64,000 nt of DNA from Squalus acanthias (lineage: Eukaryota), in NCBI GenBank assembly GCA_030390025.1, contig JASTWF010000341.1:374001-438000 (forward strand), written 5' to 3'. The translations under genes and the position numbers were made by a program. Numbering within the stretch: the stretch's first letter is position 1; each line of letters starts with the position of its first letter. The notes below the pieces were generated by a model that was not told the origin of the DNA, made no database searches, and was given only the letters and a program-made list of their open reading frames with translations. Positions 1 through 17,344 of this stretch are shown here, one piece after another.

Positions 1-78
1 ATGCCGGTGTTGGACTGGGGTGGACAAAAATGAGAAGTCGCACAACACCAGGTTATAGTCCAACAGTTTTATTTAAAA

Positions 79-116
79 TTACGAGCTTTCGGAGCTGTTG
101 CCCCTTCGTCAGGTAA
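79..116 (-). ncRNA. Minimal hammerhead ribozyme, mirror copy
   Basis: Exact reverse complement of 1738-1775 (ttacgagctttcggagctgttgccccttcgtcaggtaa on +). Confidence 0.8.
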
Positions 117-371
117 AGGTACAATGAGGGAATCTATTACACAGTACATAAACACAGAAAGCAATTTGTCTGCAGAGATACAATCTTTCAGGGAGGCATT
201 ACATCAAAGACACACCAGAGCACAGCCAAGACAATGAGATGGGTCACAGGGGGTCCAACGTGTCAAATCCTGCTGTCTGCAGTTGAGCTTTTAACCTTTT
301 TTTTGTTTTTTTTTTGTTTTGTGCTTTTTAAAATATTTTTATAAACTGGAAAGACAGACAACGATGTCAAG

Positions 372-917
372 TCACGTTCTGTAGCGTGACATGAACCCGA
401 GATCCCTATTGAGGCCGTCCTCATGGGTGCGGAACTTGGCTATCAGTTTCTGCTCGATGATTTTGCGTTGTCGTGTGTTTCGAAGGCCGCCTTGGAGAAC
501 GCTAACCCGCAGATCCGAGGCTGAATGTCCTTGACTGCTGAAGTATTCCCCGACTGGGAGGTAACAATCCTGCCTGGCGATTGTTGCGCGGTGTCCGTTC
601 ATACGTTGTCTCAGTGTCTGCATGGTCTCGCCGATGTACAATGCTCCAGGGCATCCTTTCCTGCAACGTATGAGGTAGACAACGTTGGCCGAGTCACATG
701 AGTATGTACCACGTACCTGGTGGGTAGTGTCCTCACGTGTGATGATGGTATCTGTGTTGATGATCTGGCATGTCTTGCAGAGGTTGCCGTGGCAGGGTTG
801 TGTGGTGTCGTGGTCGCTGTTCTCCTGACAGCTGGGTAATTTGCTGCGAACGATGGTACTTTTGAGGTTAGGCGGCTGCTTGAAGGCGAGTAGTGGAGGC
901 GTGGGGATGGCCTTAGC
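372..917 (-). pseudogene. Second, inverted copy of the Penelope GIY-YIG endonuclease fragment
   Basis: Same protein as the + copy with 6 amino-acid differences (R/H, T/S, Y/H, L/Q, N/D, R/H); retains YIGET. Confidence 0.88.
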
Positions 918-1482
918 CGATGACGATGAACACCTTGCTAAGGCCATCCCCACGCCTCCACTACTCGCCTTCAAGCAGCCGCCTAACCTCAAAAGTACCA
1001 TCGTTCGCAGCAAATTACCCAGCTGTCAGGAGAACAGCGACCACGACACCACACAACCCTGCCACGGCAACCTCTGCAAGACATGCCAGATCATCAACAC
1101 AGATACCATCATCACACGTGAGGACACTACCCACCAGGTACATGGTACATACTCATGTGACTCGGCCAACGTTGTCTACCTCATACGTTGCAGGAAAGGA
1201 TGCCCTGGAGCATTGTACATCGGCGAGAGCATGCAGACACTGAGACAACGTATGAACGGACACCGCGCAACAATCGCCAGGCAGGATTGTTACCTCCCAG
1301 TCGGGGAACACTTCAGCAGTCAAGGACATTCAGCCTCGGATCAGCGGGTTAGCGTTCTCCAAGGCGGCCTTCGAGACACACGACAACACAAAATCATCGA
1401 GCAGAAACTGATAGCCAAGTTCCGCACCCATGAGGACGGCCTCAATAGGGATCTCGGGTTCATGTCACGCTACAGAACGTGA
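918..1482 (+). pseudogene. 5'-truncated Penelope ORF: linker plus GIY-YIG endonuclease, no RT
   Basis: PPLLAFKQPPNLK linker, C-x4-C-x2-C motif, NVVYLIRC...LYIGES...RQRMNGHR, HF, EQKLI and GLNRD are typical of the PLE GIY-YIG domain. The ORF-track N-terminus (841-917) is only the antisense of the other arm. Confidence 0.88.
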
Positions 1483-1737
1483 CTTGACATCGTTGTCTGT
1501 CTTTCCAGTTTATAAAAATATTTTAAAAAGCACAAAACAAAAAAAAAACAAAAAAAAGGTTAAAAGCTCAACTGCAGACAGCAGGATTTGACACGTTGGA
1601 CCCCCTGTGACCCATCTCATTGTCTTGGCTGTGCTCTGGTGTGTCTTTGATGTAATGCCTCCCTGAAAGATTGTATCTCTGCAGACAAATTGCTTTCTGT
1701 GTTTATATACTGTGTAATAGATTCCCTCATTGTACCT

Positions 1738-1775
1738 TTACCTGACGAAGGGGCAACAGCTCCGAAAGCTCGTAA
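1738..1775 (+). ncRNA. Minimal type I hammerhead ribozyme in the Penelope pLTR
   Basis: UUAC-CUGACGA-A-GGGGC-AACA-GCUCC-GAAA-GC-UC^GUAA: core CUGANGA and GAAA, 5-bp stem II, UUAC/GUAA stem I, vestigial palindromic stem III (AGCU), predicted cleavage after C1771. Confidence 0.8.
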
Positions 1776-2357
1776 TTTTAAATAAAACTGTTGGACTATA
1801 ACCTGGTGTTGTGCGACTTCTCATTCTTTTTCTCCATTATTTACATGATTTAAAAAGGACATATGTTCTCCCTTTACTTTCTATGAATGGATTGTTCTTG
1901 CTGAAGCTGTTATTGGCATAGCTCTGCACCAGGTAGGATTCTCTTACCATCAAATCCCCATTGACTACCACTTAGAGCAGATTCTCATTCACCATATTCT
2001 GAAATGTTTGACTCAAGCCATCGTGTCTAGCTTCTAACATCAAAGCACCCCTTAAGCATACCCCTCCAGCTCCAATTCAGTCCACCAAAAAACCTCATTC
2101 TAAATAATAATATCAGACAACTCAAAAACTTATTTATTTAATGGCTGTATTTAAGCTTAAACTGTATAAAGCATTGGCGAAAAATAAATAATTTTGGGTT
2201 TTTTCAGCATTGTATAATTTTAATGTTTTCGTTATGTTATAAATGTTGCTTTTAGCTATAAAATGGTGGCCAAAACCAGTATAAAAAGAGATTGATTTGC
2301 AGTTTTGATTGTTTGAGTTTGAATGGGTGACTGGTTTGTGATTGGTAGTTTTTTTTC

Positions 2358-2673: not shown

Positions 2674-5560
2674 ACAGATACCTCGGGCAGTGTGGGTCTC
2701 CCAGTGTAGGAGACACAGATACCTCGGGCAGTGTGGATCTCTCAGTTTAGGATACACAGATACCTCGGGCAGTGTGGGTCTCAGTGTAGGAGACACAGAT
2801 ACCTCGGGCAGTGTGGATCTCTCAGTGTAGGAGACACAGATACCTCGGGCAGTGTGGATCTCTCAGTTTAGGATACACAGATACCTCGGGCAGTGTGGGT
2901 CTCCCAGTGTAGGAGACACAGATACCTCGGGCAGTGTGGGTCTCAGTGTAGGAGACACAGATACCTCGGGCAGTGTGGGTCTCCCAGTGTAGGATACACA
3001 GATACCTCGGGCAGTGTGGGTCTCCCAGTGTAGGAGACACAGATACCTCGGGCAGTGTGGATCTCTCAGTGTAGGAGACACAGATACCTCGGGCAGTGTG
3101 GGTCTCCCAGTGTAGGAGACACAGATACCTCGGGCAGTGTGGGTCTCCCAGTGTAGGAGACACAGATACCTCGGGCAGTGTGGGTCTCCCAGTGTAGGAG
3201 ACACAGATACCTCGGGCAGTGTGGATCTCCCAGTGTAGGAGACACAGATACCTCGGGCAGTGTGGGTCTCCCAGTGTAGGAGACACAGATACCTCGGGCA
3301 GTGTGGATCTCTCAGTGTAGGAGACACAGATACCTCGGGCAGTGTGGGTCTCCCAGTGTAGGAGACACAGATACCTCGGGCAGTGTGGATCTCCCAGTGT
3401 AGGAGACACAGATACCTCGGGCAGTGTGGATCTCTCAGTGTAGGAGACACAGATACCTCGGGCAGTGTGGGTCTCCCAGTGTAGGAGACACAGATACCTC
3501 GGGCAGTGTGGGTCTCAGTGTAGGAGACACAGATACCTCGGGCAGTGTGGGTCTCAGTTTAGGAGACACAGATACCTCGGGCAGTGTGGGTCTCAGTGTA
3601 GGAGACACAGATACCTCGGGCAGTGTGGGTCTCAGTGTAGGAGACACAGATACCTCGGGCAGTGTGGATCTCTCAGTTTAGGATACACAGATACCTCGGG
3701 CAATGTGGGTCTCAGTGTAGGAGACACAGATACCTCGGGCAGTGTGGATCTCTCAGTTTAGGATACACAGATACCTCGGGCAGTGTGGGTCTCAGTGTAG
3801 GAGACACAGATACCTCGGGCAGTGTGGGTCTCAGTTTAGGAGACACAGATACCTCGGGCAGTGTGGGTCTCAGTGTAGGAGACACAGATACCTCGGGCAG
3901 TGTGGGTCTCAGTGTAGGAGACACAGATACCTCGGGCAGTGTGGATCTCTCAGTTTAGGATACACAGATACCTCGGGCAGTGTGGGTCTCAGTGTAGGAG
4001 ACACAGATACTTCGGGCAGTGTGGGTCTCAGTGTAGGAGACACAGATACCTCGGGCAGTGTGGGTCTCAGTGTAGGAGACACAGATACCTCGGGCAGTGT
4101 GGGTCTCAGTGTAGGAGACACAGATACCTCGGGCAGTGTGGATCTCTCAGTTTAGGATACACAGATACCTCAGGCAGTGTGGGTCTCAGTGTAGGAGACA
4201 CAGATACCTCGGGCAATGTGGATCTCCCAGTGTAGGAGACACAGATACCTCGGGCAGTGTGGGTCTCAGTGTAGGAGACACAGATACCTCGGGCAGTGTG
4301 GATCTCTCAGTTTAGGATACACAGATACCTCGGGCAGTGTGGGTCTCAGTGTAGGAGACACAGATACCTCGGGCAGTGTGGGTCTCCCAGTGTAGGAGAC
4401 ACAGATACCTCGGGCAGTGTGGGTCTCAGTGTAGGAGACACAGATACCTCGGGCAGTGTGGGTCTCCCAGTGTAGGAGACACAGATACCTCGGGCAGTGT
4501 GGGTCTCAGTGTAGGAGACACAGATACCTCGGGCAGTGTGGGTCTCAGTGTAGGAGACACAGATACCTCGGGCAGTGTGGGTCTCAGTGTAGGAGACACA
4601 GATACCTCGGGCAGTGTGGATCTCTCAGTTTAGGATACACAGATACCTCGGGCAGTGTGGGTCTCAGTGTAGGAGACACAGATACCTCGGGCAGTGTGGG
4701 TCTCAGTGTAGGAGACACAGATACCTCGGGCAGTGTGGATCTCTCAGTTTAGGATACACAGATACCTCAGGCAGTGTGGGTCTCAGTGTAGGAGACACAG
4801 ATACCTCGGGCAGTGTGGGTCTCAGTGTAGGAGACACAGATACCTCGGGCAGTGTGGGTCTCAGTGTAGGAGACACAGATACCTCGGGCAGTGTGGGTCT
4901 CAGTTTAGGAGACACAGATACCTCGGGCAGTGTGGATCTCAGTTTAGGAGACACAGATACCTCGGGCAGTGTGGATCTCAGTGTAGGAGACACAGATACC
5001 TCGGGCAGTGTGGATCTCAGTGTAGGAGACACAGATACCTCGGGCAATGTGGGTCTCAGTGTAAGAGACACAGATACCTCGGGCAATGTGGGTCTCAGTG
5101 TAGGAGACACAGATACCTTGGGCAGTGTGGATCTCCCAGTGTAGGAGACACAGATACCTCGGGCAGTGTGGGTCTCAGTGTAGGAGACACAGATACCTCG
5201 GGCAATGTGGGTCTCAGTTTAGGAGACACAGATACCTCGGGCAGTGTGGGTCTCCCAGTGTAGGAGACACAGATACCTCGGGCAGTGTGGGTCTCAGTGT
5301 AGGAGACACAGATACCTCGGGCAGTGTGGGTCTCAGTGTAGGAGACACAGATACCTCGGGCAGTGTGGGTCTCCCAGTGTAGGAGACACAGATACCTCGG
5401 GCAATGTGGGTCTCAGTTTAGGAGACACAGATACCTCGGGCAGTGTGGGTCTCCGAGTGTAGGAGACACAGATACCTTGGGCAGTGTAGGTCTCCCAGTG
5501 TAGGAGACACAGATACCTCGGGCAGTGTGGGTCTCCCAGAGTAGGAGACACAGATACCTC
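2674..5560. repeat. Minisatellite of about 72 copies of a 39/41-bp unit, cagatacctcgggcagtgtgggtctc(cc)agtgtaggagaca
   Basis: Uninterrupted tandem units with few variants and no unique spacers. It accounts for all repetitive ORFs between 2614 and 5653. Confidence 0.98.
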
Positions 5561-6685
5561 AATTTCAAGGGGTGCAAACTTGAGCCTATAATACATCATA
5601 CACGCATGCACAAGATACATATGCTTAACAAGATGAGAAACAGACCATTTCATTTTAGAACTGGATCAACATATTTTTTTAAGATATCTTTTAAAAATAT
5701 GTTGACCCAGTTCTAAAATGGATTCCAAATGTTCTTTTGAAAACTGAAAGGCCTGTTCAAATAATCCTTTACAAAATGGTTTAGCATTGTGAATATTGAC
5801 AGGAGGGTGGAGGGAGATATCCTGTGTGTTGTCCAGTAAACAGTTTACCATGGTTGGTGTTACTGGCTAGAATTGGCTACATTACTTCAATATAAAGAAT
5901 AAAAGTTATAGGTTTTCATTCACAAGAATTTCTATCGGTTCGCACAAATTAATAAGCAGTTTGCACTAGAAAACAAGTTATTGGAAAACGTTTCAGCCTG
6001 AACAGGAAACATTTTGCTGGTCATCTGGATGTTACTCAGAGCATCTTGACCTGCCAGTACAGTTACTCATTAATTCAATGAAAATTGCTTTGGTATTTCT
6101 CATTGTGATTGGATTTAACAGTAGTTTTCTGCACTGTGTTTGGCTACCTATAACAGATCCCTTATATCCAGCATCACCCTTAAACACCCCATCCTCACAC
6201 CTAGAGAAAATAGGCTGAATCAGAATAAAAGGAAAATATTTTCAACTAGACTTAGATCATCAAGACTAGCTGCGTGACAACTGACAGGATAATGTCACTG
6301 AATATCACCTTCTTAAAAAGTGGCTGAGACTAACAGCTTTCAGAACGTCATATACAAGAGCATTTACAACTCAAAATGGTAGGAATTTGCTCTGTGGTTC
6401 AGGGACAAGCACCACTCACCCACAGTTTGCCTTATCTGAGATTCTATCGACAGTGACAATCTTGGCTTTTCTTGGCTTTTTTCTGACCATCTTGCTTCCC
6501 AGAGGGTACTGCCTAAATAATAACATTCTTGGATCTTAACATGTAATTTTCAACAAGTTTATACTCTGTTCTTTGACCCGGTGTCAGCCTTGGCTCAGTG
6601 GTCGCACACTTACTTCTGAACCAGAAGGTTGTGAGTTCAATTCCCACTCCAGAGACTTGAGCACCTAATTTAGATTGACACTTCT

Positions 6686-9620: not shown

Positions 9621-10591
9621 ATAGCTTTAAATGAGTGTGAAAATTCATAGCGTAGACTCGTATCAAGGTTATATTTCATTAGTTTAATTCTATTTTTGTT
9701 TTTTGTGCCTGTGCTTTCTGGTGATAGTACCTCCTTGTCCACACTCCAGAACATGGCTATACTGCCTATAGTTTTGTAGGCTCGCATTGACTGCTGCTTT
9801 GTAACTCAAAATAGGCATTTCCAGCCCATTATTGGTTGTCATTTCTGTTACCAGATGGGCTAAGAGAAGTGTTCTTGCCTTATTCCTCGGGAGTTTAAGG
9901 TCTGTTACTAAATCTCAATTTATATGAGAAAATATGAAAGGGCTGTAGTGCAATGTAATGGTGGTCCTTGCAAGAAAGGGAGTCTCTAGATTGGCTACAA
10001 AACATGGCAATAGTGTTCAATTACAGTCGCATAAACAACTTAATTGCTATTCTTTGTCTTTTTAAAAGTTTTTATACTATCAATATGACATGTTGCCTGT
10101 AATAAATTCACCAATGGATTGCAGGCTTGCAATCTAATTTCTCAAAGATATGAAACACAAGAAAGCTTGTATTACAGTTTATGCAGCAATTTTCTGCATT
10201 TTGGTGATATTGGTAGTGATGCTAAAGCAACTGTAAGATACCCTATTTCTGTATACAGATATATGTAGGATTAGGATTTGGTTTAATCTCATATGATTAA
10301 TTAAGGTTTTTGTTTTCTTTTGATTTATATAAAACTTGTGGATTTTGTACTGTAGCTAGAATAAATGAAATGGTTCAATTGTTAATTCCCAGGATGCTTT
10401 AGGGTTTAATGTATCAGTGCACAATTTATCTGCCGGCTGTTTATTTTCTGCTGAGGTGCAAGATGTGTCATTCGTGCTGTTTACTTCTTTTTGTCAATAC
10501 ATTGGAAACAAGTTAGTTTTGAGATAGGAAATGGGACAATGACCAAGATGATTAGTTACATGCTTAATGGTAAATAAGTTAACATCTGATT

Positions 10592-14898: not shown

Positions 14899-16724
14899 GG
14901 CCAGAATTTTCCTTACCTTGGTGGGTCCGGTGCCCGTGGCGGGTCACGACCCCACTGCTGGCTCCATCCCACTGTAGAAAATGAACTTACCTTAATGGGG
15001 TCTATTAAGCCTGCCCAGCACGTTACCCAGCCCAATTAGATGGAGCAGGTCTGGTGACGTCATTCATGACGCGTTTTAAGCCGGGATCCTTAAAGGGACC
15101 CTGACCACATTAAATTTTAAGTTTTTCTAACATAGTGGGTGTTGAATCTTTACTGTACAATAATATAATAAAAGTTATATATGAGTGACAAAGAAGTATT
15201 TAAATAATATTATCATTAAGTAACATGACGCCATCTACAAATACGATCAAGAACATAATTTAAAAAACACATTACAGGAAACTTTCGTTTATCCGGCATC
15301 GACGGGACCGGCGTGGTGCCGGTTTATCGAAAGTACCGGATAACAGAGAGTTATATCTACCGAGGCTATTTTTAACAAAGAGACTCCAAGCAGCACGGGA
15401 GAATCTACTCATGCTACTGCAATGTTTCGGACTTGCGACAGCGCCAGGAGGCCGAGTAGTGGCACTTTTGAAAAGTACCCCTACTGACTAAATCGGCGTT
15501 CGCGGACTCAGACTCGGACTCGGGATCGGCAACATTGCCGGTTATTTGAGAGGATTTTTCGGAGCACTCGGCGTTCGCGGAGACTCGACTGCGACTCGGC
15601 AACATTGCCGGTTATTTGAGAGGAGTTTTCGGAGGATGATTTTTGCCGGTTAAGCGAGAATTCCGGATATTTGGGTGCCGGATAAACGAAAGTTTCCTGT
15701 AATTGGGAAGTTATTGGTGCATTAGTCACAAATCTATAGACTTTTGTATCAGTAACTGGTACAAATAAAAGATGTGTGTTTATAGGTAATACATAAAATT
15801 AAGCAGATTTTAAATGTAATTGTAAAGGGGTGGATTTACAATCTTATGCAAGTTCAGCGGAAGAGCTGCGGAATCCCTGACAAACAGTGTAAGTGGTGCT
15901 TACAATGTGTTTCTGGGATTTCTGCAGCTCTTCCGTTGAAGTTAACAATGGACAAGTGAGAGAACCTCTGCAGAAATTCACCCTAAAGTCTCAAACTGAA
16001 AAATTAAATTCAGGGACTGAAAGCAAATTGAACCAGTGGAATGAGTGACGAGAATTAAATCGTTATGGTTAATGACTTGATTTAATCTGTAACTGGACAA
16101 TCACAGTATACTGTAAGAAAAACCTGACCAAAAACAACACAAAAATTTATTTAAATGGTATATTTCATTTTTTATAGTGCAGATCAATTCACTGCAATTA
16201 CTGTTGAGTTGGAAGGTAACAGCCGAGAATGGCCAGTGAAAATGTATTTCCCTCACCATCCAAGGTAGCACTTACATCCGTTCAGGAATTTCTGAATTAA
16301 TATTTACCAGTAGCTTTTCAAGTAGAACAGAATCTCCTTCAATCTGTTAGCTGATGTAATCAACATGTTTTTATTTTGGTTTGTTTTCCATGCTGTCAAG
16401 TAATCAGCTGGAGCAATGGCTAAGGAACTCACGCCTCAGGTTGATAGACATGGTTCCCGAATTGTGTGAATCTCGTGGCCATGCAGGGAAATTTAAAAAG
16501 TAAGGGGGAAAAGGCTCTTAAGTGCCTGTAAAGTACCTCATAATGATTTCAGTTGGGTCCCCCGCCGCTGCAGGTCGGGTCGGCTCCACGATGACAGACG
16601 TGCCTGTGGGAAAGACGCGTGGGAGCGAGATGACAGTGGGTTCCCAACCCGCTGTCAAAAATAACAACTTTCCCACCCGACCCGCCACCAATCTCGCCCG
16701 CTAGCACCCCAGAAAATTCAGCCC
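14899..16724. mobile_element. Possible Harbinger-like element, or two separate GC-rich end fragments, enclosing a Tigger MITE
   Basis: The ends ggccagaattttc and gaaaattcagccc are imperfect inverted repeats with GC-rich subterminal blocks. The interior is AT-rich and unassigned. Confidence 0.4.
15275..15699. mobile_element. Tigger/pogo-type MITE
   Basis: Perfect 24-bp TIR caggaaactttcgtttatccggca / tgccggataaacgaaagtttcctg, TA on both flanks. The interior matches both ends of the 46683-49073 element. Confidence 0.93.
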
Positions 16725-17259
16725 ATAGTTTTTCGTGAAAATAATATTTGTGTATTATTGCAACCTGTAATTACAGTTGCCAATTACTGTGTAAACTTCA
16801 ACACTGGGTGTATATTTTTGACTTTGCAGGGGCTGCAGCATGAGGTAAAACATCTTGTAAAGGAAGAAACACCTGGGTTGGCAAATATTTAACAAATTTT
16901 ACTTGAGTGTAAGCACCCAGATGTGGAACAGGTGGTGAAGGCTTTAAAGCTGGAGTTGGTTATTTCATAAAGCAGAACAAAGTGGTTGTAAGCTTTGTAT
17001 CATAATTTATCTGAGTCGCAGATGAAAGGTTTTAGACAGCGTAAGGATTAAACTAAGTTTTTTTATCACCACTCTGAAGCATTCACAATATGTTTTGATT
17101 ACTTTAATAACCTCAGCTTCAAAACATGGGCTCTCTCTGAGGAAAAGCCATAAAAATAAGATGACCCCATCTGTTTAGTGATAAAATCTTAAGATGTTAG
17201 GTACAAGGTGTGGATAAAAAAACACTCAAATGTAATTTGTCCTCTTTCTTTCACAGACC

Positions 17260-17344
17260 ATGTCGGGCCTAGCTGATGAGACAGCAGGAGACCTCCCTGT
17301 GAAGGATGTAGGCATGAGCCTGGCTGGAATTGGTGGATTGCAAG
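17260..17344 (+). CDS. RPGRIP1L: RPGRIP1L first coding exon (exon begins at 17257)
   Basis: ttcacag|accATG; translates [28 protein letters not shown] (human as recalled: [16 protein letters not shown]). 85 coding nt, donor gttgga. Confidence 0.95.

What the first reader, a model, noticed from the sequence alone, without database searches (positions are those of the whole stretch)
1738..1790. Hammerhead ribozyme in each palindrome arm, each facing its own perfect antisense
Seen: a complete catalytic core (CUGACGA, GAAA, UC^), 5-bp stem II, UUAC/GUAA stem I and a palindromic AGCU in place of stem III. AATAAA follows at 1781-1786, and an identical copy lies on - at 79-116. Known: PLE pseudo-LTRs carry minimal hammerheads proposed to cleave as dimers. 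Inference: a transcript in either direction makes the antisense copy first and the ribozyme last, so the hairpin would sequester it. Transcripts starting inside the palindrome would keep it active. That would be a built-in switch, and it could explain why a sense ribozyme plus poly(A) signal is tolerated upstream of RPGRIP1L coding exons.
Basis: partly seen in the sequence, partly recalled or inferred. Interest (0 to 1): 0.72.

Follow-up and report, generated by a model that had tools for sequence, protein, structure and literature searches.

The report
Hammerheads in a Penelope palindrome footprint
The two mirror-image ribozyme motifs are real, but they are the standard ends of a very common shark jumping gene whose back-to-back insertion sits in an intron; a lone copy is predicted not to cut, so the proposed on/off switch is likely a by-product of how the element inserts.

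Summary
Observation confirmed: identical minimal type I hammerhead motifs lie at 1738-1775 (+) and 116-79 (-) in the arms of a 1.8-kb palindrome. It is one truncated head-to-head insertion of a Neptune/Nematis-type Penelope-like element, with a 13-bp target duplication and a one-sided tail, in RPGRIP1L intron 1 (32 kb). The switch reading is not supported. The genome holds 59,800 pattern-intact motifs of this family; 43 of 75 sampled insertions have this layout. One transcript carries one sense motif, and a 4-bp dimer stem gives no predicted energy gain. Published relatives need a dimer or the element's protein. An unguarded sense motif of another family sits in neighbouring FTO intron 1, and the intron has 23 sense AATAAA. 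Rfam gave no hammerhead hit. The layout is published, and the scan found it before on other DNA, including this genome. Residual interest: arm lengths (12 versus 12 of 25 pairs) fit two separate cDNAs primed from both cut strands, and no sampled copy starts at the cleavage site. Nothing was tested biochemically.

The parts
1..28 (-). One-sided 'tail' of the element (about 38 nt; runs about 11 nt before the window start, up to the element's ATG)
   Evidence: Seen in L031 plus window; in the full tandem copy L165 the tail leads into the ATG of an 892-aa ORF
29..917 (-). Left arm: 5'-truncated Penelope-like copy (endonuclease remnant, 3' UTR, pseudo-LTR), 4 private substitutions
68..73 (-). AATAAA of the left arm; function untested
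   Evidence: mirror of 1781-1786
79..116 (-). Minimal type I hammerhead motif, left arm; predicted cleavage after C at 83
   Evidence: identical to 1738-1775
918..936 (+). 19-nt centre: element sequence belonging only to the right (tail-less) arm; no microhomology seen at the join
   Evidence: comparison with longer family copy L067
919..1482 (+). Remnant of the C-terminal GIY-YIG endonuclease frame with CX4CX2C linker and CCHH residues; no reverse transcriptase
   Evidence: 187 aa, 90% identical to aa 706-892 of the full ORF in L165; no Pfam hit on the remnant itself
937..1825 (+). Right arm: 5'-truncated copy without tail, 3 private substitutions
1738..1775 (+). Minimal type I hammerhead motif, right arm; predicted cleavage after C1771
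1781..1786 (+). AATAAA, present in 110 of 118 sampled element ends; one of 23 sense AATAAA in the intron; function untested
1822..1834 (+). Right copy of the 13-bp target-site duplication (left copy at contig 373,977-373,989, just before the window); its first 4 nt overlap the element end
17257..17343 (+). Host context: RPGRIP1L exon 2 (first coding exon, ATG at 17260); intron 1 runs from 14.9 kb before the window to 17256
   Evidence: tblastn with shark proteins; contigs of 2 of 4 probable-RNA runs join L032:4992 to 17257

Best explanation
This is one non-coding, head-to-head insertion of a Penelope-like retrotransposon in RPGRIP1L intron 1, likely made when the element's enzyme cut both DNA strands and copied uncut element RNA from each side, so each arm carries the hammerhead as cargo that is predicted to be idle here. 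Shown: target duplication, one-sided tail, truncated frame, family-wide layout, intron position. The hammerhead likely works only in direct-tandem master copies, as a dimer or with the element's protein. In the host pre-mRNA the arms would pair and bury the motif, but this is redundant, because a single 4-bp-stem-III motif is predicted not to cleave anyway; the intron is spliced out.
For: 13-bp TSD and tail on one arm only. 59,800 pattern-intact family motifs and 402 exact 38-mers, 0 for reversed controls. On C1:0-5.6 Mb, 118 ends = 43 minus/plus pairs + 32 solos; 41 of 43 pairs have the tail on exactly one arm. All 12 close pairs among the first 100 of 402 exact motifs are minus-then-plus. 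In 25 well-resolved pairs (of 35 examined, of 43) the tail arm is longer in 12, the tail-less arm in 12, equal in 1; here each arm has element sequence the other lacks. 0 of 87 scorable ends (of 118) start at the cleavage site; 45 start within or up to 25 nt before the motif. A direct tandem with two sense motifs 3,046 nt apart and a full 892-aa ORF exists (L165). Predicted active dimer -15.9 kcal/mol against 2 x -8.1 for monomers; AGCU duplex -2.5. Literature.
Against: No cleavage, transcription-start or editing data for this locus. The hairpin really is predicted to bury the motif (882 of 889 arm positions paired), so protection is physically possible. Tandem retrozymes are depleted from Xenopus introns (bioRxiv 10.64898/2026.07.22.740005), so active hammerheads can be selected against there. 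The 12:12 split could also come from later inversion of the centre by arm-to-arm recombination, and two pairs of those 25 look like duplicates of each other. The sample is one chromosome end chosen by an exact 31-mer.
Confidence: 0.85

Rival explanations
1. Protective switch: the antisense arm silences an otherwise active ribozyme and poly(A) signal in read-through transcripts, and this is why the copy is tolerated in RPGRIP1L; internally started transcripts would cleave.
For: Host transcript order is antisense first; the predicted fold buries all 38 nt; stem II survives in 6 of 8 simulated starts at or after 117; both motifs are unmutated; the family motif varies in a structure-keeping way.
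Against: Layout is the family default (43 of 75). Both stems form in only 2 of those 8 starts, and no second sense motif is present. Unmutated motifs are expected at 0.4% divergence per arm (about 0.3 changes expected in 76 nt). Unguarded sense motif in FTO intron 1. 23 sense AATAAA in this intron. Introns cut by a slow hammerhead still splice (as reviewed in PMC2995048).
Confidence: 0.08
2. Same by-product status, but the second arm arises by fold-back self-priming of one cDNA or of an antisense template (proposed in PMC3846280), not by two cDNAs.
For: Some very short copies join at a 4-nt palindrome just before the motif (L049, L059); the paper reports palindromes at inverted junctions.
Against: Here the tail is only on the left arm and the extra 19 nt only on the right, with no microhomology at the join; the tail-less arm is the longer one in 12 of 25 pairs.
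Confidence: 0.2
3. The palindrome is an assembly artefact or a later local duplication.
For: Long near-perfect inverted repeats are hard to assemble (noted in PMC8557442); the contig is small (520 kb).
Against: 7 private substitutions split 3 and 4 between the arms, a flanking TSD and one-sided tail, and the same layout at dozens of loci.
Confidence: 0.02

Closest known systems
Minimal type I hammerheads of metazoan Penelope-like elements (PMC4209133)
   Same: Short stem I (4 bp), unpaired base before stem II, G10.1-C11.1 pair, palindromic 15.2-16.2, no stem III, location in the pseudo-LTR; the paper also notes dual motifs 100-700 bp apart on opposite strands.
   Different: Stem II is 5 bp (7-8 in Schistosoma); 59,800 motifs here against about 9,000 reported for Xenopus tropicalis; the parts of the paper read name no shark family; activity untested here.
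EN+ Penelope-like insertions with inverted 5'-truncated copy, tail and TSD (PMC8557442 Fig. 2 legend; Pen2a_Av and Pen2 derivative in PMC3846280; D. virilis form in PMC2377424)
   Same: Head-to-head inverted copies, 30-40 nt tail on one end, target duplication, C-terminal GIY-YIG frame.
   Different: Both arms here are truncated to 0.9 kb and nearly equal, with no reverse transcriptase and no direct pseudo-LTR; TSD 13 bp rather than 8-10.
Anolis Poseidon element PAc (PMC11167929)
   Same: Hammerhead near the pseudo-LTR/ORF junction, two internal start sites defining the tail, uncleaved RNA used as template.
   Different: Different clade (this one has the CX4CX2C linker that Poseidon lacks); here the ATG lies at the tail end about 115 nt after the motif, in PAc inside stem II.
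Non-LTR retrozymes (PMC7229834; bioRxiv 10.64898/2026.07.22.740005)
   Same: Type I hammerhead, Penelope-related.
   Different: Retrozymes are direct tandem repeats; this is an inverted pair with one motif per strand.

Membership tests
Minimal type I hammerhead (PLE type) | Conserved core CUGANGA / GAAA / UH | tested here: met
   across 93 of 118 ends (relaxed match) shared variation is at N7 and H17; other core changes occur in at most 5 insertions
Minimal type I hammerhead (PLE type) | Stems I and II kept by compensatory change | tested here: met
   92.9% of cells paired; one stem I pair C-G 23 / U-A 21 of 53 rows, probably one or few events; stem II has only one-sided A-U/G-U change; outer stem I pair broken in 21 of 53
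Minimal type I hammerhead (PLE type) | Palindromic stem III remnant and extra base between 9 and 10.1 | tested here: met
   AGCU at 1767-1770 and A1749; invariant or nearly so in alignment A1
Minimal type I hammerhead (PLE type) | Self-cleavage as dimer or with protein | not testable with these tools
   only folding energies
Rfam hammerhead families | Covariance-model hit | tested here: not met
   no hammerhead hit at E<=1 or E<=10
EN+ Penelope-like element | Single RT plus C-terminal GIY-YIG ORF with CCHH residues | tested here: met
   met by family copies: 892-aa ORF in L165, RVT_1 hit in L067; the window holds only the last 187 aa; CCHH read by eye
EN+ Penelope-like element | Pseudo-LTR tandem or inverted layout, one-sided tail, TSD | tested here: met
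Neptune or Nematis clade | CX2-5CxxC linker before the endonuclease | tested here: met
   CX4CX2C in the frame; definition from PMC8557442
Neptune or Nematis clade | RT phylogeny placing it in one clade | not tested
   no reference PLE set was fetched
Non-LTR retrozyme | Two or more consecutive direct units with hammerheads | tested here: not met
   inverted pair, one motif per strand
Antisense-regulated ribozyme switch | Active ON state and selection for the guarded state | tested here: inconclusive
   OFF state predicted; no predicted ON state; one unguarded counter-example; no genome-wide test

The most novel reading that the evidence does not exclude
The genome's roughly 60,000 dormant hammerheads could be switched on in trans when the element's protein is expressed. 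Head-to-head insertion would then act as a self-silencing mode that lets the element fill host introns in either orientation, leaving sense solo copies depleted in introns and palindromic copies not.
Probability: 0.08. Interest if true: 0.6.

Novelty: new member of a known kind. Interest (0 to 1): 0.2.

Why it matters
As a single locus it matters little: it is one of tens of thousands of such footprints. As a family it is a large natural data set on an open question, how Penelope-like elements build inverted ends: arm lengths and start points here favour two cDNAs from uncut RNA. If the protective reading held genome-wide, it would show an insertion geometry that neutralises the element's own ribozyme and would explain tolerance in introns.

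Tried and rejected
Rfam scans: no hammerhead hit; the microRNA and sRNA hits are below gathering scores and reflect hairpins. Pfam on the endonuclease remnant: nothing. Two CpG-rich peaks first taken as promoter candidates were rejected: contig 370.9-371.6 kb resembles by eye the repeat found inside L075/L077, and window 15.3-15.7 kb is a high-depth repeat. The promoter region lies between FTO exon 1 and RPGRIP1L exon 1 at contig 358.4-359.0 kb. The idea that the palindrome lies in FTO or between the genes was rejected the same way. The 0.9-kb extra segment in some copies is not an intron (no GT-AG ends). Run search: no RNA holder listed on record; runs are guessed RNA, contigs only, so RNA ends at 1771/1772 could not be examined, and no reads were laid on the palindrome. 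Simple fold-back copying does not fit this locus. The Lunse et al. paper was not held; it is known here only through PMC6765202. Paper searches for shark Penelope inversions, twin priming in PLEs and antisense sequestration of a transposon hammerhead (listings only) showed no paper on these points beyond PMC3846280; the library lacks most subscription journals.

Full report
Observation. The motif is as described: stem I 1738-1741 / 1772-1775, core 1742-1748, extra A 1749, stem II 1750-1754 / 1759-1763, GAA 1764-1766, AGCU 1767-1770, C17 at 1771, AATAAA 1781-1786, and an identical minus-strand copy at 116-79. They are the only two descriptor hits in the window. A stricter descriptor found 5 in 183,901 nt of the contig and 0 in each of 20 shuffles. 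The arms differ at 7 of 889 positions, none in the motif; 3 changes are private to the right arm and 4 to the left. Rfam gave no hammerhead hit.

Is it a hammerhead? Among 118 element ends sampled on C1:0-5.6 Mb, 93 had both halves under a relaxed match. Variation shared by many insertions falls at N7, H17, loop II, the outer stem I positions and one stem II base; other core changes occur in at most 5 insertions. On 53 distinct rows, 92.9% of cells pair; one stem I pair is C-G in 23 and U-A in 21, probably one or few events, and the outer stem I pair is broken in 21. The relaxed match itself favours conserved rows. The motif fits the minimal PLE hammerhead of PMC4209133 (parts 1-2 of 4 read).

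What carries it. Both arms hold the last part of a GIY-YIG endonuclease frame with a CX4CX2C linker; the right arm's 187 aa are 90% identical to the end of an 892-aa ORF in a sister-subfamily tandem copy, L165. A longer family copy hits RVT_1. The linker marks Neptune or Nematis (PMC8557442 passages); no tree was built. A 13-bp target duplication flanks the palindrome and only the left arm has the tail, so this is one insertion event. The host exons match shark proteins at 92-96%.

How common. The exact 38-mer occurs 402 times, the 31-mer element end 67,282 times and a degenerate family motif 59,800 times; reversed controls gave 0. All 12 close pairs among the first 100 exact motifs are minus-then-plus. 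Of the first 100 end motifs, 29 close neighbours are minus-plus against 4 other arrangements. With relaxed matching, 43 of 75 insertions are such pairs, 41 of 43 with the tail on one arm. A sister palindrome lies 20 kb away in FTO intron 1. The layout is published: PMC8557442, PMC3846280 and PMC2377424, all passages; PMC4209133 mentions dual motifs on opposite strands.

Host context. RPGRIP1L is on the plus strand with its first coding exon at 17260. FTO exon 1 is on the minus strand at contig 358.4 kb. Contigs of 2 of 4 probable-RNA runs, from two studies, join an exon ending at contig 359,091 to window 17257. Intron 1 is therefore 32,165 nt, GT-AG, with the palindrome near its middle. Whether those animals carry the insertion is unknown.

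The switch idea. The geometry holds: folding 1-1850 pairs 882 of 889 arm positions and all 38 motif bases with the other arm; the motif-antisense duplex is -76.7 kcal/mol. But no ON state is predicted. Stems I and II alone score -8.1; the active dimer scores -15.9, no better than two monomers, and the best dimer fold is a different one (-21.6); AGCU pairs with itself at -2.5. Of 8 simulated starts at or after 117, stem II forms in 6 and both stems in 2, and none has a second sense motif. A Schistosoma minimal motif showed no monomer cleavage and low dimer cleavage. The Anolis motif cleaved only with the element's protein, and uncleaved RNA was the main template (PMC11167929, parts 1-2 of 4). 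Tolerance needs no guard: an intact sense motif of another family lies 2.2 kb into FTO intron 1 with no opposite copy nearby (one case, and without AATAAA); the intron has 23 sense AATAAA (suppression of intronic signals by U1 is recalled, not checked); introns cut by slow hammerheads still splice (PMC2995048 passages). Against my reading: tandem retrozymes are depleted in Xenopus introns (bioRxiv 10.64898/2026.07.22.740005, part 1 of 5 and passages), and I could not test intron orientation genome-wide.

Mechanism. The Anolis protein cuts and extends both strands and starts at two adjacent internal sites that define the tail. Here the left arm has the tail and the right arm 19 extra central bases, with no microhomology, so neither arm is a plain copy of the other. 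Of 43 pairs, 35 had a span up to 700 nt and 25 were well resolved: tail arm longer in 12, tail-less arm longer in 12, equal in 1; two pairs among them look duplicated. That fits two cDNAs primed from the two cut strands, a reading taken from earlier scan notes and tested here. Later inversion of the centre could mimic it. Of 87 scorable ends (of 118), 29 start 0-25 nt before C3, 16 inside the motif before the cut site, 0 at the cut site, 1 after it, and 41 further upstream. Templates were therefore uncut, and the RNA's 5' end or a copying stop likely lies at the front of the motif. The place where two sense motifs share one RNA is the direct tandem (L165, 3,046 nt apart).

Novelty and score. 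Hammerheads in pseudo-LTRs and inverted, tailed insertions are known, and 158 earlier scan findings hold the same search words, including one in this genome. The copy number is high but not a record (a section title of PMC7229834 gives up to 120,000 for axolotl; passages). Searches (listings) showed no paper on antisense guarding of a PLE hammerhead. No supplements were read; those of PMC4209133 and of the bioRxiv preprint could list cartilaginous-fish motifs. Lunse et al. was not available (second-hand via PMC6765202 passages). Verdict: new member of a known kind, interest 0.2.

Noticed in passing
L032:1990-2040 (contig C2683 about 356,131, minus strand): Solo, sense, intact minimal hammerhead (ACGU palindrome) of a different Penelope-like family in FTO intron 1, with no inverted partner.
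   Followed up: partly
L119:5717-9599 (contig 349.8-353.7 kb): Second head-to-head insertion of a sister subfamily, 1.45-kb arms at 97.8% identity, tail on one side, in FTO intron 1.
   Followed up: partly
L165:382-5782: Partial direct tandem with an uninterrupted 892-aa ORF and 99.7% identical repeats; looks like a young, possibly active copy of a sister subfamily.
   Followed up: partly
L075:4731-5625; L077:7377-8269; L031:6930-7600: A roughly 0.9-kb GC-rich repeat with inverted ends sits at the same 3' UTR position in several copies of the family (also suggested in L005, L023, L025), so it travelled with a sub-lineage; a similar repeat lies 3 kb before the window.
   Followed up: no
window 2674-5560: Minisatellite of 39-41 nt units, about 72 copies, 92% matches, in RPGRIP1L intron 1.
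   Followed up: no
window 5651-5720: Small 70-nt AT-rich palindrome (35-nt arms, 91%), source of sub-threshold microRNA hits.
   Followed up: no
window 15270-15700: CpG-rich repeat with inverted ends and an internal duplication; mimics a CpG island 2 kb before the first coding exon but is high-copy.
   Followed up: partly
window 1781-1786 and family ends: The conserved AATAAA lies upstream of both inferred copying start sites, so RNA cleaved and polyadenylated there could not serve as template; its role is unexplained.
   Followed up: no
L117 near 9964-9987 (contig 334.1 kb, minus strand): 8-residue exact match to the alternative N-terminus of one shark FTO isoform, a possible alternative first exon.
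   Followed up: no
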